Program-made: the position numbers and the translations under genes
Shown: in pieces, positions 10,311 to 64,000 of the stretch
Numbering within the stretch: position 1 is the stretch's first letter
How the letters are laid out: each line of letters opens with the position of its first letter
Notes under the pieces: generated by a model
Seen by the model: the letters and a program-made list of their open reading frames with translations, nothing else
The model's database searches: none
What the model was told of the DNA's origin: nothing
NCBI GenBank assembly: GCA_902523535.1
Contig: CABYZQ010000001.1
Location: 53,047-117,046 of the forward strand
Origin: an uncultured Pelagibacteraceae bacterium
Lineage (GTDB): Bacteria; Pseudomonadota; Alphaproteobacteria; Pelagibacterales; AG-422-B15
Length of the DNA stretch: 64,000 nt
Direction: 5' to 3'

Positions 10311-10322
10311 ACTCGTCTAATT

Positions 10323-54353: not shown

Positions 54354-55279
54354 TTTTGGAGCTCACTTAGATGCGTAATCATTGAATTTTCAAGTGCTTT
54401 TATATCATAACCACCTTCAAGCATCGATATTATTTTTCCTTCACAATATTTATTGGCAATTTCTCTTAACTTACTTGTAATTAGCCTAAAATCATTTTCT
54501 ACAAGATCCAGCGAGGCAAGAGGATCTTTTGTATGCGCATCAAACCCAGCAGAAATTAGAAGGAAATCTGGCCTTTGCTTTTCTAATTTTTTTACAATTC
54601 TTTCATCAAATATCTGCTGATATTTATATGAATTTGTTCCTGATGTGAGTGGAACATTAACAATATTACCTACTCCTATTTCATTTACATCACCTGTGCC
54701 AGGATATAGGGGATACTGGTGCGTTGAGTAATAGGTAACTTTTGAATTATTATAGAATATATCTTGAGTACCATTTCCATGATGAACATCAAAATCAATA
54801 ATGGCTATATTTTTAAACTTATACTTGTTAATTAAATAATGTGCGGCAATTGCAACATTGTTAAAAACACAAAAACCCATTGATCGATCATAACATGCAT
54901 GGTGACCAGGTGGCCTGACAATACAAAAGGCATTATGAACATTATTACTCATTATAGCATCTACCGCGTCTATTCCCGCTCCGGCAGCTCTTAAGGTTGC
55001 ATCCAGAGAACCTTTCGAAACTGGAGTTTCTTGATCTAAGAAAACTATTTGATCATCAGATGGAAATCTTGCAAGAGTTTCCCTAACAAATTTCTCTTCA
55101 TGAGCAGCAGAAATAAGTGATTGCTCTATTTTATTAGGTTGTTTAATTATTATATTTTTAAACTCTTCTTTATTTATTAGTTCAATGATATTTTGGACAC
55201 GATCGGAACACTCTGGATAATCCAAGGATTGAACGTGACCTTTAAAACAGTCGTCAAAATATACAAAAGTTTGTGTCAT
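54350..55279 (-). CDS. histone deacetylase-family amidohydrolase (AcuC/APAH-like)
   Basis: RPPGHHA and DFDVHHGNGTQ Zn-site motifs. The ATG at 55279 is preferred over the TTG at 55291. Confidence 0.88.
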   Translation of the reverse strand: MTQTFVYFDDCFKGHVQSLDYPECSDRVQNIIELINKEEFKNIIIKQPNKIEQSLISAAHEEKFVRETLARFPSDDQIVFLDQETPVSKGSLDATLRAAGAGIDAVDAIMSNNVHNAFCIVRPPGHHACYDRSMGFCVFNNVAIAAHYLINKYKFKNIAIIDFDVHHGNGTQDIFYNNSKVTYYSTHQYPLYPGTGDVNEIGVGNIVNVPLTSGTNSYKYQQIFDERIVKKLEKQRPDFLLISAGFDAHTKDPLASLDLVENDFRLITSKLREIANKYCEGKIISMLEGGYDIKALENSMITHLSELQK

Positions 55280-55281
55280 AG

Positions 55282-55920
55282 ATGAATTCAAAAAAAGTAA
55301 TTAAAGCCAATACAAACTCTATTAAATTAGCTGCTAGAAGTCTACTGAATGGTAAAACAATAATTATACCAACAGATACTGTTTATGGCATTGCAGCAGA
55401 TGCAACTAACGAGAAAGGGGTTGAAAATATTTTCAAAATTAAGAAAAGGCCAAGAACCTATCCACTTATTTTATTTGTAAAGTCCATAGAAGAAGCAAAA
55501 AAATATGCATATTTCAATGATATTGAGGAGTTCTTAGCAAGTCATTACTGGCCTGGACCCCTTACGCTCATACTTAGAAAAAAAAATAGAAATATCTATA
55601 ACGGTGATAAAAGACTTTCAAAAATAGGCATTCGCATTCCAAAAAATAAAGATGTTATGAACTTACTTAAAGTCGTTAATAAGCCACTCGCAACTACCAG
55701 TGCAAATATTCATCAAGAAAAAAATAGTAATAATATCAATCATCTTAGCCTACTTCATAATGATGATGTTACGCACGCAATAAGCAGTCACTACAGAATG
55801 AGCTTTGCAGAATCAACTCTGGTTGAAGTGAATAAAAACAAAATAAATTTCTTAAGAAAAGGTTCTATTTCAAAAAAATCAATTGAGAGTAATTTAAAAA
55901 AAAATTTGTTGCTTGAGTAA
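55282..55920 (+). CDS. tsaC: L-threonylcarbamoyladenylate synthase (TsaC/YrdC/Sua5 family)
   Basis: IIPTDTVYGIAADA, IKKRP, PGPLTLIL and SAN motifs. Confidence 0.88.
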   Translation: MNSKKVIKANTNSIKLAARSLLNGKTIIIPTDTVYGIAADATNEKGVENIFKIKKRPRTYPLILFVKSIEEAKKYAYFNDIEEFLASHYWPGPLTLILRKKNRNIYNGDKRLSKIGIRIPKNKDVMNLLKVVNKPLATTSANIHQEKNSNNINHLSLLHNDDVTHAISSHYRMSFAESTLVEVNKNKINFLRKGSISKKSIESNLKKNLLLE

Positions 55921-55922
55921 AC

Positions 55923-56522
55923 TTATGCATCAACAAATGCATTAAAGGAAAAGCACCTTCTTTCTCCATCTCCTCTAAAAGGGTGAACGTCATGCATTAG
56001 AAATGATGGAAATATGTATAAATCTCCTACTCTGGGCTTAAAAGTCTCTCTATGTTTCACAAGCGGTGGGCTATTTCTTGGAAGAGACACTCGACCATCA
56101 AAGAAAGAAATTAATCCTGCTAAATCTTTTTCTTTATTACGCTTAATTGAACTCGGTATCTTTAAATACCCTACTCCACTAATATTACCTCTATGTAAAT
56201 GCGGTGGATTAAAATCTCCAGCAAATTGACTGACGATCCAAGCCTTTTCTATTCTTATTTTTTTAACTTTAATATTAAGTGTTTTGTCATAATAATCTTT
56301 TACAGACTCAATAATCTGTTTTTCAATTCCAATTTTTAAGATTTTTGAGGGTATCCTAAACTGCTGTTTCATGCTTCCCACTAATCTGTGATCATAGTCA
56401 TATCTTTTCGAAAGCCTTTTATTATTAGATACCTGTTCAGAAAATTTATTTAGGCGAGCAACTGCACTTAAAGTCAGTTTTGTTTTTCCGATTGTTGGTC
56501 CAAATGGTTTGTATATCTTCAT
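55923..56522 (-). CDS. putative 2OG-Fe(II) oxygenase (PF13759/TIGR02466-like family common in marine bacteria and their phages)
   Basis: NPPHLHRGNISGVGYL and IFPSFLMHDVHPF...RCFSFN match the family pattern from memory. Confidence 0.65.
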   Translation of the reverse strand: MKIYKPFGPTIGKTKLTLSAVARLNKFSEQVSNNKRLSKRYDYDHRLVGSMKQQFRIPSKILKIGIEKQIIESVKDYYDKTLNIKVKKIRIEKAWIVSQFAGDFNPPHLHRGNISGVGYLKIPSSIKRNKEKDLAGLISFFDGRVSLPRNSPPLVKHRETFKPRVGDLYIFPSFLMHDVHPFRGDGERRCFSFNAFVDA

Positions 56523-56529
56523 ATTTTCT

Positions 56530-56606
56530 TGGTGCGCCCAGAAGGATTCGAACCCTCAACCCTCAGATCCGAAGTCTGATGCTCTATCCAGTTGAGCTAT
56601 GGACGC
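56530..56606 (-). tRNA. tRNA-Arg (anticodon UCG)
   Basis: Hand fold: GCGTCCA-TA-GCTC-AACTGGATA-GAGC-A-TCAGA-CTTCGGA-TCTGA-GGGTT-GAGGG-TTCGAAT-CCTTC-TGGGCGC-A-CCA. Confidence 0.9.
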
Positions 56607-56630
56607 ATCTATATTATTATTTCAAGTAAC

Positions 56631-57053
56631 ATGCTTTTACTTAAGATACTAGAAAAATTAGGTAGGAAAAAGGTTGTTATGGATAGAGGTCCATCGCATC
56701 CTGAATATTGCTTAGCAAAACCTTGGACAGCAAGATATTACCTCTTATTCAGAAAAAGGCCTCGTTGGTTTCCTTTTAATATATTAATACATCATATTCT
56801 TGATGATGATCATGGTGTAGGTCTTCATAATCATCCTTTTCCATATATAACAATTATTGTTAGTGGAGGGTACTGGGAAACAGATATAAATAAAAATAAA
56901 ACCTGGAGAGGAAAATTCTATGTTGGATTTAGAAGTGCTGACAATCTGCACAGAGTTGACTTAGAGCCTGGGATCAAACCAGTCACCATTTATATTGCTG
57001 GTCCATACGGACTAAGAAAAAAAGGAAGAAGCAATTATGGCATTTCAAATTAA
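56631..57053 (+). CDS. hypothetical protein (140 aa) with His-rich HNHP motif, possibly cupin-like
   Basis: The ORF opens at 56592 inside the tRNA-Arg gene, so the ATG at 56631 is preferred. Contains ILIHHILDDDHGVGLHNHPFPY. Family not recognised. Confidence 0.5.
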   Translation: MLLLKILEKLGRKKVVMDRGPSHPEYCLAKPWTARYYLLFRKRPRWFPFNILIHHILDDDHGVGLHNHPFPYITIIVSGGYWETDINKNKTWRGKFYVGFRSADNLHRVDLEPGIKPVTIYIAGPYGLRKKGRSNYGISN

Positions 57054-57323
57054 TTTATTTCTTAGCTGAGATCTTAATTGTCTATCTTTTTTTAATTGTA
57101 CCTCTCTTTTCATTGCTTCTGATTTTGAGAATAACTCTTCTTGATATAACAATTTCCATTTAGATCCTCTTGTAAACTTTGCTCCCTTAGATTCATTATG
57201 TGCTTTAAGTCTTTTTTTAATATCATTACTCCATCCTACATATGTTTGTACTTTTGGGTATTTTGTTCCAATGATATAAACAAAGAATTTCATATTTCTT
57301 GATATATTAATTGTATTTGGCAT
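57045..57323 (-). CDS. GIY-YIG nuclease superfamily protein (UPF0213/YhbQ-like)
   Basis: FFVYIIG...TYVGWSNDIKKRLKAHN..KGAKFTRG...L.Y.E motif set. The real start may be the internal ATG at 57293 (MKFFVYII). Confidence 0.75.
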   Translation of the reverse strand: MPNTINISRNMKFFVYIIGTKYPKVQTYVGWSNDIKKRLKAHNESKGAKFTRGSKWKLLYQEELFSKSEAMKREVQLKKDRQLRSQLRNKLI

Positions 57324-57364
57324 TGAAATAAATATAGTATCTATAAATCAACAGGAGAATAAGC

Positions 57365-57481
57365 ATGCGTACTACTCTTACAGTTTTAGCTTTTAGTTTC
57401 ATGATTTCTGCTTGTACCACTTTACAAAGCATAAATGAGACAGTTAAGGGCGACGGTGTTCCTTATATTCCAGGAATATAA
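57365..57481 (+). CDS. 38-aa predicted lipoprotein (not in the ORF track)
   Basis: MRTTLTVLAFSFMISACTTLQSINETVKGDGVPYIPGI. Lipobox-like ISA|C after a hydrophobic signal. A strong AGGAGA Shine-Dalgarno sequence lies 7 nt upstream. Confidence 0.6.
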   Translation: MRTTLTVLAFSFMISACTTLQSINETVKGDGVPYIPGI

Positions 57482-57489
57482 AGATATTT

Positions 57490-57514
57490 AACTGGCCTCG
57501 TTATGGGGTCAGTT
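57490..57514 (+). terminator. plus-strand-specific 10-bp stem / 5-nt loop hairpin after the small lipoprotein gene (no U tract)
   Basis: AACUGGCCUC-GUUAU-GGGGUCAGUU with two G-U pairs, which would be A-C mismatches on the other strand. Relatively GC-rich for this DNA. Confidence 0.3.
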
Positions 57515-57582
57515 ACACCTTGTAATAATCAGTTAAAAAAGTTAATTGCCATATTCAGTTTCCATTAAGTATACTTATTTTG

Positions 57583-58710
57583 ATGTTTAAAGTACAAATC
57601 TCGGGAACTGGGCTATACACGCCCAAAGAAAAAATTTCTAACGAAGAATTAGTTGAATCGTACAATAAGTATGTGGATGAATATAATTTATCAAACTCTA
57701 GCGAGATAAATAATGGAAGTTTAGAGCCACTTGAAAAATCTAGCTCAGAGTTTATTGAAAAAGCATCAGGTGTAAAATCTAGATATGTTCAAAATAAATC
57801 AGGAATTTTAGATACATCCTTTATGCGTCCAAGACTTGTTGAAAGATCTGAAGATCAAATATCCAATCTTGCGGAAATGGGAGTAATTGCTGCAAAAGAA
57901 GCTATGAAGAATTCCCAAGTCGATATTAAAGATATAAATGCTGTAATTGTTGCATGCTCAAATTTAGAACGTGCCTACCCTGCTATAGCTATTGAAATCC
58001 AAAATGAATTAGGCATAGAGGGGTTTGCATTTGACATGAATGTTGCCTGTTCCTCAGCTACTTTTGGAATTCAAGCCATTTTTGATATGATAAAAAGTGG
58101 GAGTATTAAATCAGCCTTAATGGTCAACCCAGAAATTTGTACTGGTCATTTAAATTTCAAAGATAGGGATTGTCATTTTATATTTGGTGACGTTGCAACA
58201 GCTGTAGTTTTAGAAAGAATGAATGGGGAAATTCATAAAAACAATTCTTATGAAATACTTGGGACAAAGCTCCTTACAGAGTTTTCTAATAATATAAGAA
58301 ATAATTATGGATTTCTGAATAGTTCTTCTCCTGAAGGAATTGGTACGGCAGACAAACTGTTCCATCAAAATGGAAGAAAAGTATTTAAAGAAGTCATTCC
58401 TAAAGTTTCTAATTTAATAAAGGATCATTTGGAAGAGAATAAACTTTCAGCCGAAGATTTAAAGGGAATGTATTTGCATCAAGCAAATGAAAATATGAAT
58501 GTTCTTATTTCTAAATATGTACTTGGCAAAGAAGCGTCTAGAGATCTAGCTCCCGTCGTTCTTGATGAATATGCTAACACAAGTTCTGCAGGTTCAATAA
58601 TTGCTTTTCATAAACATAACAACTCACTAAAAAAAGATGATCTTGCAATAATTTGCTCTTTTGGGGCAGGTTATTCTGTGGGGAATGTTATTGTGAGAAA
58701 GATTGCTTAA
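57583..58710 (+). CDS. beta-ketoacyl-ACP synthase III family enzyme with an N-terminal insertion (PA3286-like subgroup)
   Basis: Cys-His-Asn triad contexts NVACSSATF, LHQANENMN and ANTSSAGS. The ISGTGLYTP N-terminus and SSEFIEKASGVKSRY insertion are also present. Confidence 0.8.
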   Translation: MFKVQISGTGLYTPKEKISNEELVESYNKYVDEYNLSNSSEINNGSLEPLEKSSSEFIEKASGVKSRYVQNKSGILDTSFMRPRLVERSEDQISNLAEMGVIAAKEAMKNSQVDIKDINAVIVACSNLERAYPAIAIEIQNELGIEGFAFDMNVACSSATFGIQAIFDMIKSGSIKSALMVNPEICTGHLNFKDRDCHFIFGDVATAVVLERMNGEIHKNNSYEILGTKLLTEFSNNIRNNYGFLNSSSPEGIGTADKLFHQNGRKVFKEVIPKVSNLIKDHLEENKLSAEDLKGMYLHQANENMNVLISKYVLGKEASRDLAPVVLDEYANTSSAGSIIAFHKHNNSLKKDDLAIICSFGAGYSVGNVIVRKIA

Positions 58711-59258
58711 AAAATTGGCTCCTTAGAGAAAAGCTTCCTTACTTTTGGTTCAAAGTATTCAAGAGAATAGGATTCATAATCTGGATCAAATGACTTTTGA
58801 TCCCACTTTTCACAAAAATCCACTGCATCTTGATAGTAAGGATGATCTTTAAATTTTTCTCTAGCATGTCGATCCCTCCCTATGTGATGAGCATAGTAAT
58901 ATTCTTGAAAAATCCCGTGATGAAGCATAATCCAATATACTTTTTCAGAGACATAGGGCCTTAAAACTGAGGCAACAAGTTGACTATGATTATATGGGGC
59001 AAGATTATCTCCAATATCGTGCACAAGAGTTGCCACCACCATTTCTTCATCTGCGCCATCTTTTTCAGCTCGAGTTGCTGATTGAAGTGAATGCTCTAAC
59101 CTTGTTACTTGATAACCATCAACTGAACTATCTAAATTTCTCAAAGCATCTAGTATTCTATCAGGAAGATCTTTTGAAAACTTTTCTTCATACTTACTTA
59201 AAAGATCATAATCTTCTTTTGTGCCATCTTTCATCTGAGTAAATTTTACTTTTTCCAT
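58707..59258 (-). CDS. HD-domain protein of the PhnZ/TmpB-like mixed-valent diiron oxygenase class (predicted)
   Basis: RLEHSLQSA, GADEEMVVATLVHDIGD, MLHHG and KWDQKSFD motifs; about 183 aa. The ATG directly abuts the stop of the upstream dioxygenase. Confidence 0.7.
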   Translation of the reverse strand: MEKVKFTQMKDGTKEDYDLLSKYEEKFSKDLPDRILDALRNLDSSVDGYQVTRLEHSLQSATRAEKDGADEEMVVATLVHDIGDNLAPYNHSQLVASVLRPYVSEKVYWIMLHHGIFQEYYYAHHIGRDRHAREKFKDHPYYQDAVDFCEKWDQKSFDPDYESYSLEYFEPKVRKLFSKEPIF

Positions 59259-60350
59259 TTATATTTCCTCTGATAATAATTTAAACTTACTTTCTGCGGA
59301 GTCATGGTCTATATATAATCCCTGCAGCCATCTATTGCCTTCAGCTGTATTATAACTTGTTCTGCCATGAAGTGTTCGATAATTATTCATAATAATTAAA
59401 TCTCCTGGCTCTAAGCGAAACTTAAATATATATTTAGAAGAATTTATCATTTTGTGCATCACTCTTTTTGACGCATAAAATTCATCAAGCTTTTTAGGGT
59501 CTTGATAAAAAACAAAATCCAGTCTGTTGCTATACTTTATTTGCTTTATCTCTCCTCGTTCACTTAACTTTATGATCTTACCTGTTTTTTCCAGTATAGC
59601 ATCTTTGTCTTTAAATTTAAAATTGATAAGAGTATTCGTAAGGGTATTAAACGCATTCGGATTTTCATTTTTTAAGTCTTCTACAACCTTAAACCCATCG
59701 ACAATTGTTGAGTCGCCTCCTTGGCAACTATTATTAATACAAAAAAGAAATTGAATAGAAGGTACTGGTTTTCGATATGGATTATCAGTATGAGACTCTA
59801 ATTCAATGGATGTATATGCTAAATCGTTTGGTTGTTTTTGAGACTTAACGTTAAACAATTTTCCAAAATTAGTTTCTCTAATATATCCAATTTTTTTTGC
59901 AAAATTTATAATCTCACCATCTTCGGGTTTGAGTTTGCTGACAATTGCAAATCCGTATCTATGATAATATTCTAATATCTCATAAATTTGTTTATTTTCA
60001 TTTGTATTATAATCAAATTTAAACTTTCTAAGTGAGATACTGTCTTTATTCCAAAAAACTTTATCAGGAAGTCCTTTGGCTCTCTTTATTTCTTTAATTA
60101 AGTTTTTTATGCAATACTTAGCTACATGATTATCTGAGAATTTAATTAATAGTTTATCTTCGTCTAACTTATTTACTTCTTTGATTTCTAAATTTTCAAT
60201 GATTTTCTCAGGGTCATATAGTCGTTGTAGTGAATTTTGATCGACTGCTCCTATTTCTAATGACCGTTCTCTCATCCATAAAGGATGGAGCTTATATTGC
60301 TCATCTCCAATAAAAAACCTTATTTCTTTTGAGTCATAATTAAAATTCAT
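59259..60350 (-). CDS. gamma-butyrobetaine-hydroxylase/TmpA-like Fe(II)/2-oxoglutarate dioxygenase
   Basis: TauD/BBOX fold with facial triad ELESHTDNPY ... RTLHGRT. N-terminal DUF971-like domain (HPLWMRERS) without Cys ligands. Confidence 0.8.
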   Translation of the reverse strand: MNFNYDSKEIRFFIGDEQYKLHPLWMRERSLEIGAVDQNSLQRLYDPEKIIENLEIKEVNKLDEDKLLIKFSDNHVAKYCIKNLIKEIKRAKGLPDKVFWNKDSISLRKFKFDYNTNENKQIYEILEYYHRYGFAIVSKLKPEDGEIINFAKKIGYIRETNFGKLFNVKSQKQPNDLAYTSIELESHTDNPYRKPVPSIQFLFCINNSCQGGDSTIVDGFKVVEDLKNENPNAFNTLTNTLINFKFKDKDAILEKTGKIIKLSERGEIKQIKYSNRLDFVFYQDPKKLDEFYASKRVMHKMINSSKYIFKFRLEPGDLIIMNNYRTLHGRTSYNTAEGNRWLQGLYIDHDSAESKFKLLSEEI

Positions 60351-60365
60351 AAAAAAAATATAAAA

Positions 60366-62312
60366 CTAATTTTTTAATTCTTCAATATTTTCATATTCCG
60401 ATAAACAAGCAGGATTAGCTAAGGCCTCTAAATTCTTTATTTTCATGCCATTGATTATATCTCGCACTGTAATTTCTGCTATTTTGCCACTTCTTGTTCT
60501 AGGTATATCACTTACTTTAATAATTTTTGCTGGTACATGTCTTATAGAATTAGAAGATCTAATATTATATTTAATTTTATCAATAATAACTTGATCAAGT
60601 TCAATATTCTTTTGAAGTTTCACAAATAGAATAATTCTTGTATCATTGTTCCAAGACTGACCAACCACAATAGATTCAACAATTTCATCTATTTGCTCGA
60701 CAGACCTATATATTTCGGCAGTTCCAATTCTAATTCCACCAGGATTTAATGTTGAGTCTGACCGTCCATAAATGACTATTCCATTATTTTGAGATATTTT
60801 GGCATAATCACCTTGTGTCCATACATTTTTAAATTTTGAAAAGTATGATTTAATATATTTCTCTTTATTTAAGTCATCCCAAAATCCAATCGGCATAGAT
60901 GGAAGCGGTGATTTACATACCAGCTCTCCTTTCTGAAGTGTACTCTGGCTTTTTTCATCAAATACATCTACGTTCACTCCAAGACACTTACTCTGTATTT
61001 CACCAGAGTAAACTGGCAACATTGGATTGCCCCCAACAAAGCAGGAAACAATGTCTGTCCCTCCACTAATGGACGCCAGATGTATATCTTTTTTAATGAA
61101 TTCGTAAACATACTCAAAACTCTCACTTATAAGTGGTGACCCTGTGCTCAATATTGATTGAAGTTTACCTAAATTATATTTTTCAAGAATATTGACCTTA
61201 TCATTTCTTAAAGCATCAATAAATTTTGCACTTGTTCCAAAGCACGTTATTTCTTCTTCCTCAGCAATTTTAAAAAGAGTTTCTTTCTCTGGATAAAATG
61301 GGGATCCATCATAAAGCACTAATGAAACTCCTGACGCTAAACCTGTAATAAGCCAATTCCACATCATCCAGCCACAGGTTGTATAATAAAATAATTTGTC
61401 ACCTATTTTTAGATCACAATGAAGCTGTTGCTCTTTTATATGTTGTAACAGTGGGCCACCGGTATTATGAACTATACATTTAGGCTTACCAGTTGTTCCA
61501 CTAGAATATAGAATATACATTGGGTCATTGAATAAGTTTTCTTCATAAATAATCTTTCCTTCATAAGTTTCTTTTTGGAAAATTGAACTTAAACTTATTC
61601 CTTCTATTTCTTTATCCTGTTTCTTGTCTGGATAATTAATACAAATAGTATGTTCGAGTGATTGAATTTTATTAATTACATTTTTTATCTTTTTTTCAAT
61701 ATCAAATTTTTTTCCACCATATAAATATATTTTAGAATATAATAATACTTTTGGTTTTATTTGATTAAAACGATCTAAAATAGCAACTTCACCAAAATCT
61801 GGTGAGCAAGATGACCATATTGCTCCAATAGAGTTCACCGCTAAAAATGCAATGAGTGTCTCAGCGCTGTTTACAGAAACAGCTACAACCCGATCTCCTT
61901 TCTTAACCCCAATAGACCTAAAATAGTTAGCTAATTTTGAAGTTTTTGATATTAAATCTTGCTTATAATAACTTTTCTTAAACCCAAGTTCATTGATAAA
62001 GGTGATCGGGCAGGAGTTAAGATTAGATAATATATTTTCGGCATAATTAACTTTAATATTTTTGAAAAATTCTTGGTTATATATAGATTTATCTTTTTCA
62101 ATAACAGGTCTGGAACTTCCTTTGAACTTTATGCCCAGATAATCAATTAAGCTTAGCCAAAATTCAGCGGGGTGATTAATACTCCACGACCAGATTTTAC
62201 TATAATCAAAGTTTAATTGTAATTTGTTGTTTTCTTCTAAAAAAATAAAATAATTATATAATTTTGTTTTTTCAATTCTTTCCTTAGATGGGCTCCAAAG
62301 CAACTTTGGCAT
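60366..62312 (-). CDS. acetoacetyl-CoA synthetase-like acyl-CoA ligase
   Basis: 648 aa; AACS-type N-terminus LWSPSKERIEKTKLYNYF...WSWSINHPAEFW; AMP motif YSSGTTGKPKCIVH. Confidence 0.82.
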   Translation of the reverse strand: MPKLLWSPSKERIEKTKLYNYFIFLEENNKLQLNFDYSKIWSWSINHPAEFWLSLIDYLGIKFKGSSRPVIEKDKSIYNQEFFKNIKVNYAENILSNLNSCPITFINELGFKKSYYKQDLISKTSKLANYFRSIGVKKGDRVVAVSVNSAETLIAFLAVNSIGAIWSSCSPDFGEVAILDRFNQIKPKVLLYSKIYLYGGKKFDIEKKIKNVINKIQSLEHTICINYPDKKQDKEIEGISLSSIFQKETYEGKIIYEENLFNDPMYILYSSGTTGKPKCIVHNTGGPLLQHIKEQQLHCDLKIGDKLFYYTTCGWMMWNWLITGLASGVSLVLYDGSPFYPEKETLFKIAEEEEITCFGTSAKFIDALRNDKVNILEKYNLGKLQSILSTGSPLISESFEYVYEFIKKDIHLASISGGTDIVSCFVGGNPMLPVYSGEIQSKCLGVNVDVFDEKSQSTLQKGELVCKSPLPSMPIGFWDDLNKEKYIKSYFSKFKNVWTQGDYAKISQNNGIVIYGRSDSTLNPGGIRIGTAEIYRSVEQIDEIVESIVVGQSWNNDTRIILFVKLQKNIELDQVIIDKIKYNIRSSNSIRHVPAKIIKVSDIPRTRSGKIAEITVRDIINGMKIKNLEALANPACLSEYENIEELKN

Positions 62313-62333
62313 ATTAAAAATTTTTATTATATC

Positions 62334-63758
62334 TTAAGCAATGTGAAGTGCTTTAGTTTCAAGGTAATCTTCTAGCCCCATGTCTCCACCTTCTCGTCCA
62401 TTGCCAGATTCCTTATATCCTCCAAAAGGTGAGCCGTAATTATAACCGCCACCATTAACATGAACACCGCCAGCTCTTAATTGCCTTGAGACTCGTTCTG
62501 CTCTTTCTTTATCTCCCGTCTGCAAATAGGCAGCAAGACCATAAGGAGTATCATTTGCTATTCTGATCGCCTCATCCTCGTCATCAAAAGGAATTATAAC
62601 CAGTACCGGACCAAATATTTCCTCTTGAGCAACTCTCATATTGTTATTTACGTCAGAAAAAATTGTTGGTTTTACAAACCATCCTTTTTCATGGCCATCG
62701 GGCTTTCCAAGGCCGCCTACTAATAGTTTTGCTCCTTCATCAATACCAACTTGAATCATATTTTGAACCCGATCAAATTGAATTTTATCAAAGAGTGGTC
62801 CAAGATGGTCACCATCCAGTGTCGGATCGCCTACCTTAATTTCTTCGGCAGTTTTTTTTGCAATATCAATTACTTCATCGTAGCATTTTTTTTCTACCAG
62901 TAACCTTGTAGGAGCATCACAAGATTGTCCTGTATTAAACATGCATTCATTTACTGAATCTTTTACTTTTTCATCTAAGTCACAATCTGCAAAGACAATG
63001 TTAGGCGATTTACCACCTAATTCTAAAGTTACTTTTTTTACAGTTTCAGCAGATTCAATAGTTACTGACTTACCTCCTCTTTTTGAGCCAGTGAATGACA
63101 TCATTTCTATATCTGGATGCCGAGACATTGACACACCTACTCCTTCTCCATCTCCATGTACTAAATTAAATACACCATCAGGAACTCCAGCCTCATCTAG
63201 AATTTCAGCGTAAACCATCGCTGATAAAGGTGTATGCTCAGATGGCTTTAAGATACATGTGCATCCTGTAGCAATCACTGGAAGGACTTTCAGTGTAATT
63301 TGATTAATGGGCCAGTTCCATGGAGTAATTAGGCCACAAACTCCTATTGGCTCTTTTAAAAGTACATCTGAATTAGAGAGAACAATTTTTTCTTCATGCT
63401 TCTTTAATGCATCAATAAAACCATCCAAGTGTCCTATTGCAGCATCTGCCTGTGCATCTCGAGCCATTCTATGAGGAGCTCCCATTTCTGATGTCATTGC
63501 ATTAGCAAGATCTTCAAATCTTTTTTCAGAGATCTGCCTAATTTTATTTAATAATTCTAAACGATCATTTTTTGAAGTTTTAGAAAAGGTATTAAATGCA
63601 TTTTTTGCAGCGCTCACAGCCATATCTACATCTTCAGAATTACCAAGAATTATCTCACCTATCAAATCTTCGGTTGCGGGGTTAAGAACTGCCATTGTTT
63701 TAGTTGAATTGGGTTTTACCCATTTACCGTTAATATAAAATTTTTGAAGATTTTCCAT
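62334..63758 (-). CDS. NAD(P)-dependent aldehyde dehydrogenase
   Basis: ITPWNWP, ELGGKSP, NTGQSCDA (catalytic Cys) and EEIFGPV motifs. Confidence 0.92.
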   Translation of the reverse strand: MENLQKFYINGKWVKPNSTKTMAVLNPATEDLIGEIILGNSEDVDMAVSAAKNAFNTFSKTSKNDRLELLNKIRQISEKRFEDLANAMTSEMGAPHRMARDAQADAAIGHLDGFIDALKKHEEKIVLSNSDVLLKEPIGVCGLITPWNWPINQITLKVLPVIATGCTCILKPSEHTPLSAMVYAEILDEAGVPDGVFNLVHGDGEGVGVSMSRHPDIEMMSFTGSKRGGKSVTIESAETVKKVTLELGGKSPNIVFADCDLDEKVKDSVNECMFNTGQSCDAPTRLLVEKKCYDEVIDIAKKTAEEIKVGDPTLDGDHLGPLFDKIQFDRVQNMIQVGIDEGAKLLVGGLGKPDGHEKGWFVKPTIFSDVNNNMRVAQEEIFGPVLVIIPFDDEDEAIRIANDTPYGLAAYLQTGDKERAERVSRQLRAGGVHVNGGGYNYGSPFGGYKESGNGREGGDMGLEDYLETKALHIA

Positions 63759-63827
63759 TTTGTTTTTTATTACATACTATACTATTCAAATTGTAAATTC
63801 TTTTTAATATTGTAACTTCATTGTCTT

Positions 63828-64000
63828 ATGAATAAAAATGTTATCATTTCTTGTGCAGTTACTGGATCGGGGGACTCAGTTGGAAAGCATCCTAATATTC
63901 CTGTTACTCCTCAACAAATAGCCGATGCCTCTATTGAGGCAGCTAATGCTGGAGCCGCTATAGCCCATATTCATGTTAGAAATCCTGAAACTGGAAAGGG
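63828..64000 (+). CDS. BKACE family (3-keto-5-aminohexanoate cleavage enzyme / DUF849) protein, 5' part only
   Basis: [57 protein letters not shown] matches the BKACE N-terminal TIM-barrel consensus. Truncated by the window end. Confidence 0.8.

What the first reader, a model, noticed from the sequence alone, without database searches (positions are those of the whole stretch)
58707..64000. Unusual operon context: ALDH, acetoacetyl-CoA-synthetase-like ligase, TmpA-like and TmpB-like genes, divergent from a BKACE gene
Seen in the sequence: four co-directional genes with gaps of 21, 15 and 0 nt (62334-63758, 60366-62312, 59259-60350, 58707-59258), and a divergent BKACE gene starting 69 nt away. 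Established knowledge: BKACE enzymes include dehydrocarnitine cleavage enzyme (3-dehydrocarnitine plus acetyl-CoA gives acetoacetate plus betainyl-CoA). Acetoacetyl-CoA synthetase would salvage that acetoacetate. BBOX makes carnitine from gamma-butyrobetaine. ALDH9-type enzymes make gamma-butyrobetaine from trimethylaminobutyraldehyde. Inference: the neighbourhood looks like a trimethylammonium (gamma-butyrobetaine/carnitine-type) catabolic island. Known carnitine pathways have no role for an HD diiron oxygenase, and known TmpAB/PhnYZ loci do not need AACS, ALDH or BKACE. This hybrid may therefore be an undescribed route, for example oxidative C-P or C-C cleavage feeding an aldehyde or acid into CoA-dependent steps. 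Carnitine dehydrogenase, thioesterase and transporter genes are not visible and may lie beyond position 64000.
Basis: partly seen in the sequence, partly recalled or inferred. Interest (0 to 1): 0.7.

Follow-up and report, generated by a model that had tools for sequence, protein, structure and literature searches.

The report
SAR11 quaternary-amine island, new oxygenase pair
This stretch of a SAR11 (Pelagibacter-type) genome is part of a gene island for breaking down carnitine-like trimethylammonium compounds, and it includes an uncharacterised hydroxylase plus iron-oxygenase pair that resembles, but is not, the known phosphonate-cleaving TmpA/TmpB system and is probably miscounted as 'phnZ' in ocean surveys.

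Summary
ALDH (62334-63758), acetoacetate-CoA ligase (60366-62312), a BBOX/TmpA-family 2OG dioxygenase (59259-60350) and a 183-aa HD protein (58707-59258) lie head to tail on the minus strand (gaps 21/15/0 nt). A divergent BKACE gene starts 69 nt away.

Near-identical SAR11 contigs show what lies past 64000: BKACE, an L-carnitine-dehydrogenase-like gene, a second BBOX-leaning dioxygenase and an OpuAC-type ABC importer.

The dioxygenase/HD pair is not TmpAB:
- Both score below the family cut-offs.
- The dioxygenase has Asp where TmpA has phosphonate-binding Asn187.
- The HD protein belongs to a separate large family ("HD-X"). It keeps the six diiron ligands and the PhnZ/TmpB fold but lacks their YxxE loop.

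This module recurs in Halomonas (beside canonical TmpAB), Marinomonas, Alteromonas, Steroidobacteraceae and a Pseudomonas plasmid, and as fusions in oomycetes. Its neighbours are repeatedly a related ALDH, alcohol dehydrogenases, betaine transporters, BKACE/thioesterase or betaine-demethylation genes.

Best reading: two routes converge on glycine betaine. One is the known carnitine route. The other is an uncharacterised hydroxylation/oxidative-cleavage route. The substrate is unproven. New variant of a known kind.

The parts
58707..59258 (-). HD-X: a 183-aa HD-domain protein, predicted diiron oxygenase of a family distinct from PhnZ/TmpB. Its start codon directly follows the dioxygenase stop codon.
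   Evidence: The six ligands H56, H80-D81, H91, H114 and D153 are conserved in 35 diverse members. The AF2 model has pLDDT 97. The ten best PDB matches are all PhnZ/TmpB (TM 0.62-0.70), followed by MIOX; HD hydrolases reach 0.38 at most. NCBIfam PhnZ/TmpB models give only 31-43 bits against cut-offs of 215-300. The YxxE loop is absent and there is an extra N-terminal MKDGTxEDY segment. The family occurs fused to TauD or FA_hydroxylase domains.
59259..60350 (-). D-type BBOX/TmpA-family Fe(II)/2OG dioxygenase (363 aa), partner of HD-X.
   Evidence: Best PDB match is TmpA 6npb (196 bits), ahead of human BBOX (154 bits). NCBIfam gives TmpA 337 < 400, BBOX 289 < 415 and TMLD 183 < 268. The Fe triad H187/D189/H328, Arg340 (aligned with the 2OG-binding Arg360 of BBOX) and the aromatic cage F162/F166/Y179/Y346 are kept. 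D176 replaces TmpA N187 / BBOX N191, S274 replaces N286/N292, and R276 equals TmpA R288. The WLRER motif is present and there is no CxCxxC zinc site.
60366..62312 (-). Acetoacetate-CoA ligase (648 aa).
   Evidence: NCBIfam NF002937 gives 849 bits (cut-off 639). TIGR01217 gives 753 bits (cut-off 521), full length.
62334..63758 (-). NAD(P)-dependent aldehyde dehydrogenase (474 aa), first gene of the run.
   Evidence: Pfam Aldedh gives 530 bits. No NCBIfam equivalog is reached (BADH 436 < 669). ALDHs 49-53% identical sit next to HD-X modules in other SAR11 (L026, L079), a P. aeruginosa plasmid and a Rhizobium chromid. This gene has the highest metatranscriptome contig depth of the run.
63759..63827 (.). 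69-nt divergent intergenic spacer between the ALDH and BKACE starts; presumed shared control region.
   Evidence: Sequence. The same divergent layout is seen in L001-L007. No promoter or terminator signal above chance and no Rfam match.
63828..64000 (+). [quoted passage not shown]
   Evidence: The full 294-aa protein with Pfam BKACE is followed by a 323-aa L-carnitine-dehydrogenase-like gene, a 380-aa BBOX-leaning dioxygenase and an OpuAC/permease/ATPase transporter in near-identical contigs.

Best explanation
The four genes are one arm of a SAR11 island for catabolising trimethylammonium compounds. The other arm, just past the window end, holds BKACE, a carnitine-dehydrogenase-like gene, a BBOX-like dioxygenase and an OpuAC-type ABC importer. 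The two branches converge on glycine betaine, which SAR11 demethylates to glycine.

Branch 1 uses known chemistry and is assigned here by homology:
1. Gamma-butyrobetaine is converted to L-carnitine by the 380-aa BBOX-like enzyme.
2. L-carnitine is converted to 3-dehydrocarnitine by the CDH-like enzyme.
3. 3-Dehydrocarnitine is converted to betainyl-CoA plus acetoacetate by BKACE.
4. The operon's acetoacetate-CoA ligase recovers the acetoacetate.

Branch 2 is new:
1. The ALDH makes a trimethylammonium carboxylic acid from its aldehyde.
2. The D-type dioxygenase hydroxylates the carbon next to the acid group, beta to the nitrogen.
3. The translationally coupled HD-X protein, a PhnZ/TmpB-fold diiron oxygenase, uses O2 to cleave the bond at the new carbinol carbon.
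4. The products are a shorter betaine, most likely glycine betaine, plus CO2 or a small fragment.

My preferred substrate is 3-(trimethylammonio)propanoate (beta-alanine betaine), the carboxylate look-alike of TMAEP, which would give glycine betaine plus CO2.

Shown: gene content and order, family membership and non-membership, conserved pairing and fusion, fold, and transcription in seawater. Inferred: every chemical step of branch 2, the substrate and the product.

Rough sub-confidences:
- Island identity: 0.85.
- Hydroxylase followed by an HD-X cascade: 0.75.
- C-C rather than C-P cleavage: 0.55.
- Beta-alanine betaine specifically: 0.25.
For: Island:
- L002-L007 carry OpuAC-permease-ATPase / BBOX-like-CDH-like-BKACE / ALDH-AACS-dioxygenase-HD.
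- The CDH-like protein scores 395 bits on L-carnitine dehydrogenase, and the 380-aa dioxygenase scores best as BBOX.
- The ligase is above the AACS cut-offs.

Hydroxylase/HD-X cascade:
- The gap between the two genes is 0 nt.
- 19 of the 84 HD-X loci analysed (six are near-identical SAR11) have a BBOX/TmpA-type dioxygenase immediately upstream, in SAR11, Halomonas, Marinomonas, Alteromonas, Steroidobacteraceae and Luminiphilus.
- TauD-HD fusions occur in oomycetes, an amoebozoan and metagenomes. FA_hydroxylase-HD occurs as a fusion (Mantoniella) and as neighbours (Phaeobacter).
- HD-X has the diiron ligand set and the PhnZ/TmpB/MIOX fold.

Not TmpAB:
- Scores are below the cut-offs.
- TmpA's phosphonate ligands are N187, N287 and R288 (PMC9296572). 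Only the Arg is kept across the D-type group, and N187 is always Asp.
- Halomonas urmiana carries the D-type/HD-X pair directly beside a canonical TmpA (563 > 400) and a TmpB-type HD with a YLGE loop (263 bits, just under its 300 cut-off).
- None of the genes annotated around the D-type modules is a phosphonate-transport gene.

Acid made from an aldehyde or alcohol:
- An ALDH 49-53% identical recurs with HD-X in L026/L079, P. aeruginosa pF045_1 and Rhizobium.
- In pF045_1, Rhizobium and Halomonas gemina a GMC 'choline dehydrogenase' is also present; the first two also carry a choline-type binding protein.

Product is glycine betaine:
- In L079/L026 the module sits among BHMT-like and DMGDH-like genes.
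- Halophiles have just regulator + module + BCCT transporter.

Chemical precedent: SmaO/SmaX, a 2OG hydroxylase plus an HD-domain enzyme that cleaves the C-C bond of an alpha-hydroxycarboxylate (PMC12186529).

Substrate availability: beta-alanine betaine, carnitine and gamma-butyrobetaine are all measured in Pacific plankton (PMC9321204).
Against: - No enzyme of this HD-X family or D-type dioxygenase group has been assayed, so all of branch 2 is inference.
- The window protein itself still has two of TmpA's three phosphonate ligands (N275, R276), so a phosphonate substrate is not excluded.
- An Asp next to the anion site is not obviously useful for a simple carboxylate. In TMLH the equivalent Asp231 is thought to bind an alpha-ammonium group (PMC7764450), which points to an amino-acid-type substrate instead.
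- About 30 SAR11 loci carry a 55-65% identical HD-X with no hydroxylase nearby (purF-HD-gshA context), and four SAG loci have HD-X beside thioesterase-BKACE-CDH without a dioxygenase. HD-X can therefore work on a substrate that is already hydroxylated.
- Some fusions have BBOX-like (Asn) rather than D-type signatures.
- The SAR11 island lacks the betainyl-CoA thioesterase that branch 1 needs, and lacks an alcohol dehydrogenase for branch 2.
- SmaX uses one iron, whereas HD-X has a two-iron ligand set.
- The exact gene order is conserved only in a shallow clade (at least 92% protein identity).
Confidence: 0.5

Rival explanations
1. The pair is a divergent but functional TmpA/TmpB. It hydroxylates 2-(trimethylammonio)ethylphosphonate, or a related N-methylated aminophosphonate, and cleaves the C-P bond to give glycine betaine plus phosphate. 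The island simply gathers several routes to glycine betaine.
For: - TmpA is the best structural and NCBIfam match of the dioxygenase.
- The window protein keeps N275 and R276, equivalent to TmpA N287 and R288.
- HD-X's closest folds are PhnZ and TmpB.
- The product, glycine betaine, would fit the betaine-demethylation neighbours in L079.
- In Halomonas urmiana the module sits next to canonical tmpAB, which could mean a related phosphonate substrate.
Against: - Scores are below both equivalog cut-offs (337 < 400; 39 < 300).
- The phosphonate ligand N187 is Asp in every D-type member, and N287 is Pro/Thr/Gly/Ala in most.
- The YxxE substrate loop of PhnZ/TmpB is missing.
- Having both modules side by side in one genome argues for different substrates.
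- The annotated neighbours are ALDH, GMC dehydrogenase, BCCT/choline-type/PotF-like transporters, BKACE and CoA ligases, not phosphonate or Pho genes.
Confidence: 0.15
2. The island is a bacterial copy of the eukaryotic carnitine-biosynthesis steps joined to carnitine breakdown.
1. The D-type dioxygenase acts like trimethyllysine hydroxylase.
2. HD-X cleaves 3-hydroxy-trimethyllysine between C2 and C3, giving 4-trimethylaminobutyraldehyde or gamma-butyrobetaine.
3. The ALDH acts as TMABA dehydrogenase.
4. The 380-aa enzyme acts as BBOX.
5. CDH, BKACE and AACS finish the job.
For: - Every gene of the island gets a role.
- The Asp that replaces BBOX Asn191 is the very change said to distinguish TMLH (Asp231, alpha-ammonium binding) from BBOX (PMC7764450). 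The conserved Arg276 could bind the alpha-carboxylate.
- In Steroidobacteraceae the module sits with an aminobutyraldehyde-dehydrogenase-type ALDH (782 > 615), BKACE and a carnitine-DH-type thioesterase.
Against: - The D-type proteins are further from the TMLD model (147-198 bits) than the BBOX-leaning paralogues are (208-222).
- The Pseudomonas-plasmid, Rhizobium and Halomonas contexts (GMC dehydrogenase + ALDH, the first two with a choline-type binding protein) suggest an alcohol precursor, not an amino acid.
- Halophiles with only regulator + module + BCCT would still need a gamma-butyrobetaine route.
- A four-electron HD oxygenase would make the acid directly and leave the ALDH without a role.
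- The carnitine biosynthesis pathway is stated not to have been observed in prokaryotes (PMC8085414 abstract).
Confidence: 0.15
3. HD-X acts on L-carnitine, or another 3-hydroxy betaine, itself. This would be an O2-dependent, CoA-independent cleavage to glycine betaine plus a C2 fragment, running parallel to CDH/BKACE. The D-type dioxygenase would only supply such hydroxy-betaines.
For: - HD-X occurs without any hydroxylase next to thioesterase-BKACE-CDH in four SAG loci, and alone in many SAR11 genomes.
- Oomycete fusions join a BBOX-signature domain (Asn, CxCxxC) to HD-X.
- Carnitine shares the N+-CH2-CH(OH)-X motif with the TmpB substrate.
Against: - Cleaving an unactivated C-C bond of this kind has no precedent among HD oxygenases.
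- It would duplicate CDH/BKACE in the same island.
- It does not explain the D-type signature.
Confidence: 0.08
4. There is no shared pathway. In a maximally compact genome the genes are merely adjacent, and the HD protein is an ordinary metal-dependent phosphohydrolase.
For: - Tight spacing is the norm here: 69% of co-directional gaps are 21 nt or less.
- The H..HD..H..H..D ligand set also occurs in dinuclear HD hydrolases (PMC8177086).
- The full order is conserved only in close relatives.
- Many HD-X genes sit in housekeeping contexts.
Against: - The dioxygenase+HD-X pairing recurs in unrelated classes and as gene fusions in eukaryotes.
- Similar ALDH, BKACE, thioesterase and CoA-ligase partners recur.
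- Fold matches to hydrolase HD proteins are poor (TM 0.38 or less, against 0.62-0.70 for the oxygenases).
Confidence: 0.07

Closest known systems
TmpA/TmpB of Leisingera caerulea (TMAEP to glycine betaine + phosphate; PDB 6npb-d, 6npa)
   Same: - A two-gene module: a BBOX-family Fe/2OG hydroxylase with an aromatic cage for a trimethylammonium group, followed by a roughly 190-aa HD-domain protein with the six diiron ligands.
- TmpA is the best match of the dioxygenase, and TmpB/PhnZ are the best folds for the HD protein.
- The likely product is glycine betaine.
   Different: - Both proteins fall below the curated family cut-offs.
- Asn187 is replaced by Asp and Asn286 by Ser in the dioxygenase.
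- The HD protein is only 22-24% identical, lacks the YxxE loop and two insertions, and has an extra N-terminal segment.
- It coexists with canonical TmpAB in Halomonas urmiana.
- Its neighbours are carbon-catabolic genes, not phosphonate-related ones.
PhnY*/PhnZ (2-aminoethylphosphonate to glycine + phosphate)
   Same: The same hydroxylase-then-HD-oxygenase logic. PhnZ is the top structural match of HD-X (TM 0.67-0.70).
   Different: - 43 bits on the Phn-HD model against a 215 cut-off.
- The partner dioxygenase is BBOX-type with a quaternary-amine cage, not PhnY*.
SmaO/SmaX (Asp to beta-hydroxy-Asp to aminomalonate in a RiPP; PMC12186529)
   Same: A 2OG hydroxylase followed by an HD-domain enzyme that cleaves the C-C bond of an alpha-hydroxycarboxylate. 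This is the chemistry I propose for HD-X.
   Different: - SmaX acts on a peptide.
- SmaX binds one iron through 2 His + 1 Asn, whereas HD-X has the full two-iron ligand set.
Bacterial L-carnitine catabolism: carnitine dehydrogenase + BKACE dehydrocarnitine cleavage enzyme + betainyl-CoA thioesterase (Pseudomonas cdh genes; BKACE family study of Bastard et al. 2014, from my own knowledge)
   Same: - A BKACE next to a carnitine-dehydrogenase-like gene and a betaine-type transporter.
- Acetoacetate as a by-product, handled here by AACS.
   Different: - No thioesterase in the SAR11 island.
- The CDH-like gene is just under its cut-off (395 < 414).
- The island adds a BBOX-like gene, an ALDH and the D-type dioxygenase/HD-X pair.
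Arctic SAR11 genomic island with ABC transporter, CHDH, ALDH, CDH, two BBOX and BKACE (PMC12421898)
   Same: A SAR11 flexible island with CDH, BKACE, BBOX-like genes, ALDH and a betaine ABC transporter, described at annotation level.
   Different: - 17-20 genes in another arrangement, with choline dehydrogenase, class II aldolase, thioesterase and a glycerophosphodiesterase.
- No AACS or HD protein is listed.
- The authors reported it absent from 18 earlier complete SAR11 genomes.
Eukaryotic carnitine biosynthesis (TMLH, HTML aldolase, TMABA dehydrogenase, BBOX)
   Same: - Two BBOX-family dioxygenases plus an ALDH in one island.
- The D-type enzyme shares with TMLH the Asp that replaces BBOX Asn191.
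   Different: - Overall the D-type enzyme is closer to TmpA than to TMLD.
- It has no CxCxxC zinc site.
- An HD protein stands where eukaryotes use a PLP aldolase.

Membership tests
TmpA (2-trimethylaminoethylphosphonate dioxygenase, NF049936) | Whole-protein score at or above the curated equivalog cut-off (400 bits) | tested here: not met
   337 bits. Other HD-X-partnered dioxygenases score 316-364. A genuine TmpA in L019 scores 563.
TmpA (2-trimethylaminoethylphosphonate dioxygenase, NF049936) | Phosphonate-binding residues N187, N287 and R288 (PMC9296572) | tested here: not met
   The window protein has D176 / N275 / R276. Across the D-type group only the Arg is kept, and position 187 is always Asp.
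TmpA (2-trimethylaminoethylphosphonate dioxygenase, NF049936) | Fe(II) facial triad, 2OG-binding Arg and aromatic cage for the trimethylammonium group | tested here: met
   H187, D189 and H328 are present. R340 aligns with BBOX R360. The cage residues are F162, F166, Y179 and Y346.
[quoted passage not shown] | Whole-protein score at or above the curated cut-offs (300 / 214.6 bits) | tested here: not met
   39.3 and 42.9 bits, with only residues ~46-87 matched. phmmer against the PDB aligns only residues 36-87.
[quoted passage not shown] | H...HD...H...H...D diiron ligand set | tested here: met
   H56, H80-D81, H91, H114 and D153 are invariant or at least 90% conserved in 35 family members, and they align with the TmpB ligands.
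[quoted passage not shown] | YxxE substrate-gating loop before the first His (PMC8177086) | tested here: not met
   HD-X has S-V-D-G-Y-Q-V-T-R-L-E-H where TmpB has S-Y-L-G-E-A-V-T-M-A-E-H. The Tyr and Glu positions are Val/Leu and Tyr.
[quoted passage not shown] | Overall fold of the HD oxygenases rather than of HD hydrolases | tested here: met
   Foldseek ranks 1-10 are PhnZ/TmpB (E 1e-6 to 4e-5, TM 0.62-0.70, ~180 columns). MIOX has TM 0.53 and hydrolases 0.38 or less.
[quoted passage not shown] | Iron-dependent, O2-dependent four-electron bond cleavage | not testable with these tools
   Needs a biochemical assay.
Gamma-butyrobetaine dioxygenase (BBOX, TIGR02409) | Score at or above 414.75 bits; carboxylate ligands N191 / N292-293; N-terminal CxCxxC zinc site | tested here: not met
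   289 bits. The ligand positions are D176 and S274. The N-terminal motif is WMRERSLE with no Cys. The 380-aa paralogue past the window end scores best as BBOX (313 bits, still below the cut-off) and keeps the Asn.
Acetoacetate-CoA ligase (TIGR01217 / NF002937) | Full-length score above the curated cut-offs | tested here: met
   753 > 520.9 and 849 > 639, covering residues 2-647. Substrate was not assayed.
Betaine-aldehyde dehydrogenase (TIGR01804) | Score at or above 668.6 bits | tested here: not met
   436 bits, so it is a generic ALDH by this test.
BKACE (Pfam PF05853) | BKACE domain across the protein | tested here: met
   Only 57 codons lie in the window. The full 294-aa protein on L001-L004 carries PF05853. 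Whether it is the dehydrocarnitine-cleaving subtype was not testable: no reference subtype sequences were at hand, and all NCBIfam BKACE equivalogs are below their cut-offs.
L-carnitine dehydrogenase (NF005471), in relatives just past the window end | Score at or above 414 bits | tested here: inconclusive
   394.7 bits, full length and best hit by a wide margin, but just under the cut-off.

The most novel reading that the evidence does not exclude
HD-X is a third, very abundant branch of the HD-domain diiron oxygenases. It cleaves C-C rather than C-P bonds in hydroxylated quaternary-amine acids. Together with a D-type BBOX/TmpA-like hydroxylase it forms an O2-dependent, CoA-independent route to glycine betaine. 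The input would be compounds whose marine breakdown is unknown: beta-alanine betaine, headgroups of betaine lipids such as DGTA/DGTS after alcohol and aldehyde oxidation, or trimethyllysine-type amino acids.

A corollary follows. Most 'phnZ' genes attributed to Pelagibacterales in ocean surveys are HD-X genes and do not report phosphonate use.
Probability: 0.3. Interest if true: 0.85.

Novelty: new variant of a known kind. Interest (0 to 1): 0.68.

Why it matters
SAR11 is the most abundant heterotroph in the surface ocean. It depends on glycine betaine and related compounds for glycine and methyl groups (PMC9321204). An island that funnels further quaternary amines into glycine betaine widens the list of dissolved compounds SAR11 can use.

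The dioxygenase/HD-X module would add a new reaction to a very small enzyme class. The reviews read here list only MIOX, PhnZ and TmpB as HD oxygenases, plus SmaX in 2025. The module is widespread, from SAR11 to Halomonas, Pseudomonas plasmids and oomycetes.

There is also a practical consequence. A global survey collected marine 'phnZ' through COG4341 and TIGR00277. Its set had a mean length of 185 aa and was 45% Pelagibacterales, and it concluded that phnZ is the dominant phosphonate-catabolic strategy (PMC9381506). A stricter study found phnZ-like genes in under 1% of bacteria (PMC10574752). JGI labels the SAR11 HD-X proteins 'predicted HD phosphohydrolase', which from my own knowledge is the COG4341 name. 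HD-X may therefore explain much of that discrepancy.

Tried and rejected
- **Protein search with the HD protein.** The listed hits were all 92% or more identical to the query and, where named, Pelagibacteraceae, so they were useless for deep context. This was solved with the representative search and a genome scan.
- **Promoter/terminator scan.** 25 promoter-like sites were found against 25.0 expected, and there was no intergenic terminator, so it was uninformative.
- **Rfam scan of 55000-64000.** It found only a tRNA and no riboswitch in the 69-nt spacer.
- **Looking for a thioesterase, BHMT, DMGDH or a second HD-X within the 64-kb window.** None was found.
- **Rajakovich et al. 2019 (PMC6503667) and the PhoF paper.** Neither is held. 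I could not check whether their similarity networks or the fungal PhnY*-PhnZ fusion PhoF touch the HD-X family. A search seeded with a eukaryotic fusion returned oomycete, not Fonsecaea, proteins.
- **Literature searches.** I searched for an HD oxygenase in carnitine, trimethyllysine or beta-alanine-betaine catabolism. Nothing was found.
- **Idea that the window's dioxygenase is simply BBOX.** Considered and rejected, because a better BBOX candidate sits in the other arm and the carboxylate ligands are changed.
- **Gene spacing as evidence of an operon.** Considered and rejected on the base rate.
- **More distant HD-X relatives on plasmids (45-52% identity).** They sit in heterogeneous contexts (class II aldolase, aromatic-catabolic genes) and were not used for the functional argument.

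Full report
**1. The observation**

- 62334-63758 (474 aa)
- 60366-62312 (648 aa)
- 59259-60350 (363 aa)
- 58707-59258 (183 aa)

The gaps between them are 21, 15 and 0 nt. One search shows an ATG at 63828 on the plus strand, 69 nt from the first gene's start codon. It opens a frame that runs off the window.

Family calls:
- Aldehyde dehydrogenase: Pfam 530 bits; no NCBIfam equivalog reached, with BADH at 436 < 669.
- Acetoacetate-CoA ligase: above both curated cut-offs (849 > 639 and 753 > 521).
- A TauD-fold dioxygenase of the BBOX/TmpA group: TmpA 337 < 400, BBOX 289 < 415, TMLD 183 < 268.
- An HD-domain protein: matches the PhnZ/TmpB models only over about 40 residues (39-43 bits against cut-offs of 215-300).
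- The truncated plus-strand gene: matches BKACE models.

So the description is accurate. Its statistical weight is smaller than it looks. The window is 93% coding, and 69% of co-directional neighbours are 21 nt or less apart. Promoter and terminator scans give nothing above chance.

**2. What lies beyond position 64000**

A metagenome contig whose ALDH is 100% identical continues with the full 294-aa BKACE and then a 3-hydroxyacyl-CoA-dehydrogenase-fold gene (L001). That second gene is broken by an apparent frameshift on this 3x-coverage contig.

Longer SAR11 contigs carry proteins 92-99% identical to the window's. They are L002-L007, which include two GenBank assemblies (GCA accessions) and two Pelagibacteraceae isolates from the genome scan. 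They show the complete layout:
- OpuAC-type binding protein, permease and ATPase.
- On the other strand, a 380-aa GBBH_N+TauD dioxygenase, a 323-aa dehydrogenase and BKACE.
- Divergently, ALDH, AACS, the 363-aa dioxygenase and the HD protein.
- Then the same convergent FabH-like gene and housekeeping genes as in the window.

Scores for the other arm:
- The 323-aa protein scores 395 bits on L-carnitine dehydrogenase (cut-off 414).
- The 380-aa dioxygenase scores best as BBOX (313 against 269 for TmpA).
- The ATPase passes the betaine/proline/choline ABC family cut-off.

No thioesterase is present.

**3. The dioxygenase/HD pair is a module of its own**

The HD protein has thousands of near-identical relatives in marine metagenomes and Pelagibacteraceae genomes. 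A search of 1.8 billion cluster representatives finds 2293 family representatives, 236 of them below 1e-30. I call the family HD-X.

Features of HD-X:
- An alignment of 35 diverse members keeps H56, H80-D81, H91, H114 and D153. This is the H..HD..H..H..D set that binds the two irons of MIOX, PhnZ and TmpB (PMC8177086).
- An AlphaFold model (pLDDT 97.3) has PhnZ and TmpB as its ten best PDB matches (TM 0.62-0.70 over ~180 columns, 22-24% identity). MIOX comes next at 0.53, and HD phosphohydrolases reach 0.38 at most.
- HD-X lacks the YxxE gating loop and two insertions of TmpB, and it has a conserved N-terminal MKDGTxEDY segment.
- In a distance tree, a canonical TmpB-type protein sits on a very long branch outside the whole family.

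Evidence for coupling to hydroxylases:
- Seven of ten long family members tested are TauD-HD fusions, some with the GBBH_N domain. One is a fatty-acid-hydroxylase-HD fusion.
- Named examples are oomycete proteins annotated as gamma-butyrobetaine dioxygenase (Saprolegnia, Achlya, Aphanomyces, Thraustotheca) and a Mantoniella protein.
- In Phaeobacter inhibens the HD-X gene is followed by a sterol-desaturase-family gene.
- In the 84 loci analysed (six of them near-identical SAR11), 19 have a BBOX/TmpA-type dioxygenase immediately upstream. They come from SAR11, Marinomonas, Alteromonas, four Halomonas/Onishia species, Steroidobacteraceae, a soil proteobacterium and Luminiphilus.

**4. The partner dioxygenases form a recognisable subgroup**

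All those tested from the D-type group score best on the TmpA model, at 316-364 bits, always under the cut-off. Published structures say TmpA binds the phosphonate with N187, N287 and R288, and BBOX binds the carboxylate with N191 and N292/293 (PMC9296572).

In my alignment, 12 of the 13 HD-X-adjacent dioxygenases outside the window's own clade, four of the seven fusions (one with Lys for the Arg) and the P. aeruginosa plasmid copy share the following:
- Asp at the N187/N191 position (D176 in the window).
- Ser at the N286/N292 position.
- The Arg of TmpA R288.
- A WLRE(R/K) motif in place of WLRDN.
- No CxCxxC zinc site.

The window's own dioxygenase shows the same signature.

The window protein also keeps N275 (TmpA N287), but most others have Pro there. 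The iron triad, the 2OG arginine and the aromatic cage are intact, so a quaternary ammonium substrate (conceivably a sulfonium one) is expected.

The same Asn-to-Asp change is what the literature uses to tell trimethyllysine hydroxylase (Asp231, thought to bind the alpha-ammonium group) from BBOX (PMC7764450).

Halomonas urmiana carries three things within 3.5 kb:
- The D-type/HD-X pair.
- A canonical TmpA (563 bits).
- A 190-aa TmpB-type protein with a YLGE loop (263 bits, just under its 300 cut-off, against 44 bits for its HD-X neighbour).

Two such modules side by side argue for different substrates.

**5. Recurrent neighbours**

| Locus | Genes around the D-type dioxygenase / HD-X module |
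|---|---|
| Marinomonas communis | LysR regulator, D-type dioxygenase, HD-X, BCCT transporter |
| Halomonas gemina | GMC oxidoreductase, an enolase-superfamily gene and an ALDH, divergent from the pair |
| P. aeruginosa plasmid pF045_1 | LysR, D-type dioxygenase, HD-X, choline-type binding protein, 'choline dehydrogenase', ALDH (49% identical to the window's) |
| Rhizobium chromid | HD-X, GMC, the same type of binding protein, ALDH (51%); no D-type dioxygenase adjacent |
| Other SAR11 lineages (L026, L079) | BBOX-like gene, ALDH (53%), HIBADH-like dehydrogenase, DMGDH-like and BHMT-like genes, D-type dioxygenase, HD-X |
| Steroidobacteraceae (L077) | ADP-forming acyl-CoA synthetase, a thioesterase matching the C-terminal domain of the long carnitine dehydrogenase, BKACE, an aminobutyraldehyde-dehydrogenase-type ALDH, a binding protein that looked PotF-like by eye (no family scan was run), D-type dioxygenase, HD-X |
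| Four alphaproteobacterial SAG loci | HD-X beside thioesterase-BKACE-CDH, with no dioxygenase |
| One metagenome protein | HD-X fused to a HIBADH-type dehydrogenase |

The L079/L026 site lies at the same chromosomal position where most SAR11 have only HD-X.

The full five-gene order is a feature of one shallow SAR11 clade. The associations that recur across classes are HD-X with a D-type dioxygenase, an ALDH of similar sequence, an alcohol dehydrogenase, a CoA-activating enzyme, BKACE/thioesterase/CDH, and betaine transporters or demethylation genes. The order is not deeply conserved, but the juxtaposition is not random.

**6. Transcription**

Four seawater metatranscriptomes hold contigs 92-100% identical to the region. 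Contigs span the ALDH/AACS junction (for example 61031-62560 and 61726-63620) and the dioxygenase/HD junction (for example 59157-59601). None among those listed crosses 60350-60366. Depth is highest over the ALDH and falls downstream. This is compatible with one transcript from the 69-nt spacer, but contig depth is a poor measure and DNA carry-over cannot be excluded.

**7. Mechanism**

Branch 1 is ordinary. It runs from gamma-butyrobetaine to carnitine to dehydrocarnitine to betainyl-CoA plus acetoacetate, with AACS recovering the acetoacetate. Each enzyme is assigned by homology. Two of them sit just under equivalog cut-offs, and the thioesterase step is unaccounted for.

For branch 2 the shown facts are these:
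- A hydroxylase with a quaternary-amine cage and an altered anion site.
- A translationally coupled protein with the fold and ligands of the HD oxygenases.
- Their fusion in eukaryotes.
- Recurrent alcohol- and aldehyde-oxidising partners.

I infer the sequence alcohol or aldehyde, then trimethylammonium acid, then hydroxy acid, then oxidative cleavage to a shorter betaine. The betaine-demethylation neighbours and the minimal halophile loci point to glycine betaine as the product.

The retained Arg sits where TmpA holds the group directly attached to the hydroxylated carbon. That is why I favour the carboxylate analogue of TMAEP, beta-alanine betaine, giving glycine betaine plus CO2. This is the small-molecule counterpart of the SmaO/SmaX reaction (PMC12186529). 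Beta-alanine betaine, carnitine and gamma-butyrobetaine all occur in Pacific plankton samples (PMC9321204).

The Asp is the weak point of this choice. It fits an amino-acid-type substrate better. The trimethyllysine rival, which gives every gene in the island a role, therefore stays alive, as does a phosphonate substrate.

HD-X copies without a hydroxylase partner show that some members take substrates that are already hydroxylated. These are the purF-HD-gshA context in about 30 SAR11 loci, and the CDH-BKACE context.

**8. Comparison with what is known, and novelty**

The module works like PhnY*/PhnZ and TmpA/TmpB, but it fails their membership tests: scores, phosphonate ligands and the YxxE loop. 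The rest of the island is a variant of the CDH-BKACE carnitine route.

A SAR11 island with CDH, BKACE, two BBOX genes, ALDH and an ABC transporter was reported in Arctic isolates in 2025 at annotation level. It has a different gene set and no HD or AACS gene (PMC12421898). I found no paper describing HD-X or the D-type dioxygenases. I could not read Rajakovich et al. 2019 or the PhoF paper, so prior bioinformatic mention cannot be excluded. I rate it a new variant of a known kind.

**9. A side consequence**

JGI names the SAR11 HD-X proteins 'predicted HD phosphohydrolase'. A global survey built its marine phnZ set from COG4341 and TIGR00277. The set had a mean length of 185 aa and was 45% Pelagibacterales, and the survey concluded that phnZ is the dominant phosphonate-catabolic gene (PMC9381506). 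A review notes that a stricter study found phnZ-type genes in under 1% of surface bacteria (PMC10574752). It is an inference, not a test, that HD-X accounts for much of the difference. It could be checked directly by re-classifying those reads.

**10. Verdict**

- The 'quaternary-amine island' interpretation is supported.
- The 'TmpA/TmpB-like' label is supported only as a resemblance.
- The substrate and chemistry of the new module are open.
- Interest 0.68.

Noticed in passing
L008, L010, L011, L015-L018, L025, L028-L033, L035, L036, L039-L041, L043, L046, L048, L050, L054, L055, L057-L059, L062, L067, L072, L074 (HD gene near 10001-10558 in most): About 30 Pelagibacteraceae species genomes carry a 55-65% identical HD-X gene with no oxygenase partner. 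It sits in a conserved housekeeping run: dnaB - MMPL-type exporter - cvpA - purF - HD-X - (thioredoxin-domain protein) - gshA - gshB - EamA - MFS. These neighbours were named by eye from their sequences; no family scan was run. The TauD-partnered copies of L026/L079 nest inside this clade and occupy the same chromosomal site. Its function as a near-core SAR11 gene is unexplained.
   Followed up: partly
L019 8858-13305 (Halomonas urmiana TBZ3): The D-type dioxygenase + HD-X pair lies directly upstream of a canonical TmpA (563 bits, above cut-off) and a TmpB-type HD protein (263 bits, YLGE loop). This is a natural side-by-side pair of the two module types.
   Followed up: yes
P0391; P0147/P0275; L087 9001-10647: HD-X also occurs fused to a HIBADH-type beta-hydroxyacid dehydrogenase (P0391). 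It occurs fused to a fatty-acid-hydroxylase-family domain (Mantoniella antarctica and marine metagenomes), and adjacent to a sterol-desaturase-family gene in a Phaeobacter inhibens plasmid, where PGAP calls it 'inositol oxygenase family protein'.
   Followed up: partly
literature: PMC9381506 supplement; PMC10574752: A global marine survey defined phnZ by COG4341/TIGR00277. Its set had a mean length of 185 aa and was 45% Pelagibacterales. The SAR11 HD-X family probably falls inside that definition, which may explain conflicting estimates of phnZ abundance.
   Followed up: partly
window 56533-56606 (-): A tRNA gene (Rfam 67.8 bits). The mechanical ORF 56592-57053 (TTG start) overlaps it, so that ORF's true start is probably the ATG near 56631. 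In L003, two extra genes (one DUF805) are inserted in this neighbourhood, between the 140-aa gene and the 2OG-FeII_Oxy_5 gene.
   Followed up: no
window 57580-58710 (+): A FabH-like beta-ketoacyl-ACP synthase III (NF005703, 598 bits) converges on the HD gene and overlaps its stop codon by 4 nt. It marks the conserved right-hand border of the island in all six related loci.
   Followed up: partly
L001 3-1078: On the 3.4x-coverage metagenome contig that is otherwise identical to the window, the carnitine-dehydrogenase-like gene is split into 190-aa and 168-aa products. The other five relatives with this gene on their contig have an intact 323-aa gene. This is probably an assembly frameshift.
   Followed up: partly
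window 55923-56522 (-): A 199-aa protein with the 2OG-FeII_Oxy_5 domain (70 bits), an unrelated small 2OG oxygenase of unknown role, lies 2 kb from the island. It is conserved in the relatives.
   Followed up: no
L090 2327-8558; L091 5052-7353; L095 7923-9576: More distant HD-X members (45-53% identity) in Tistrella, Sphingobium and Cupriavidus replicons sit next to class II aldolase/adducin-family genes. A class II aldolase is also listed in the Arctic SAR11 carnitine-type island.
   Followed up: no
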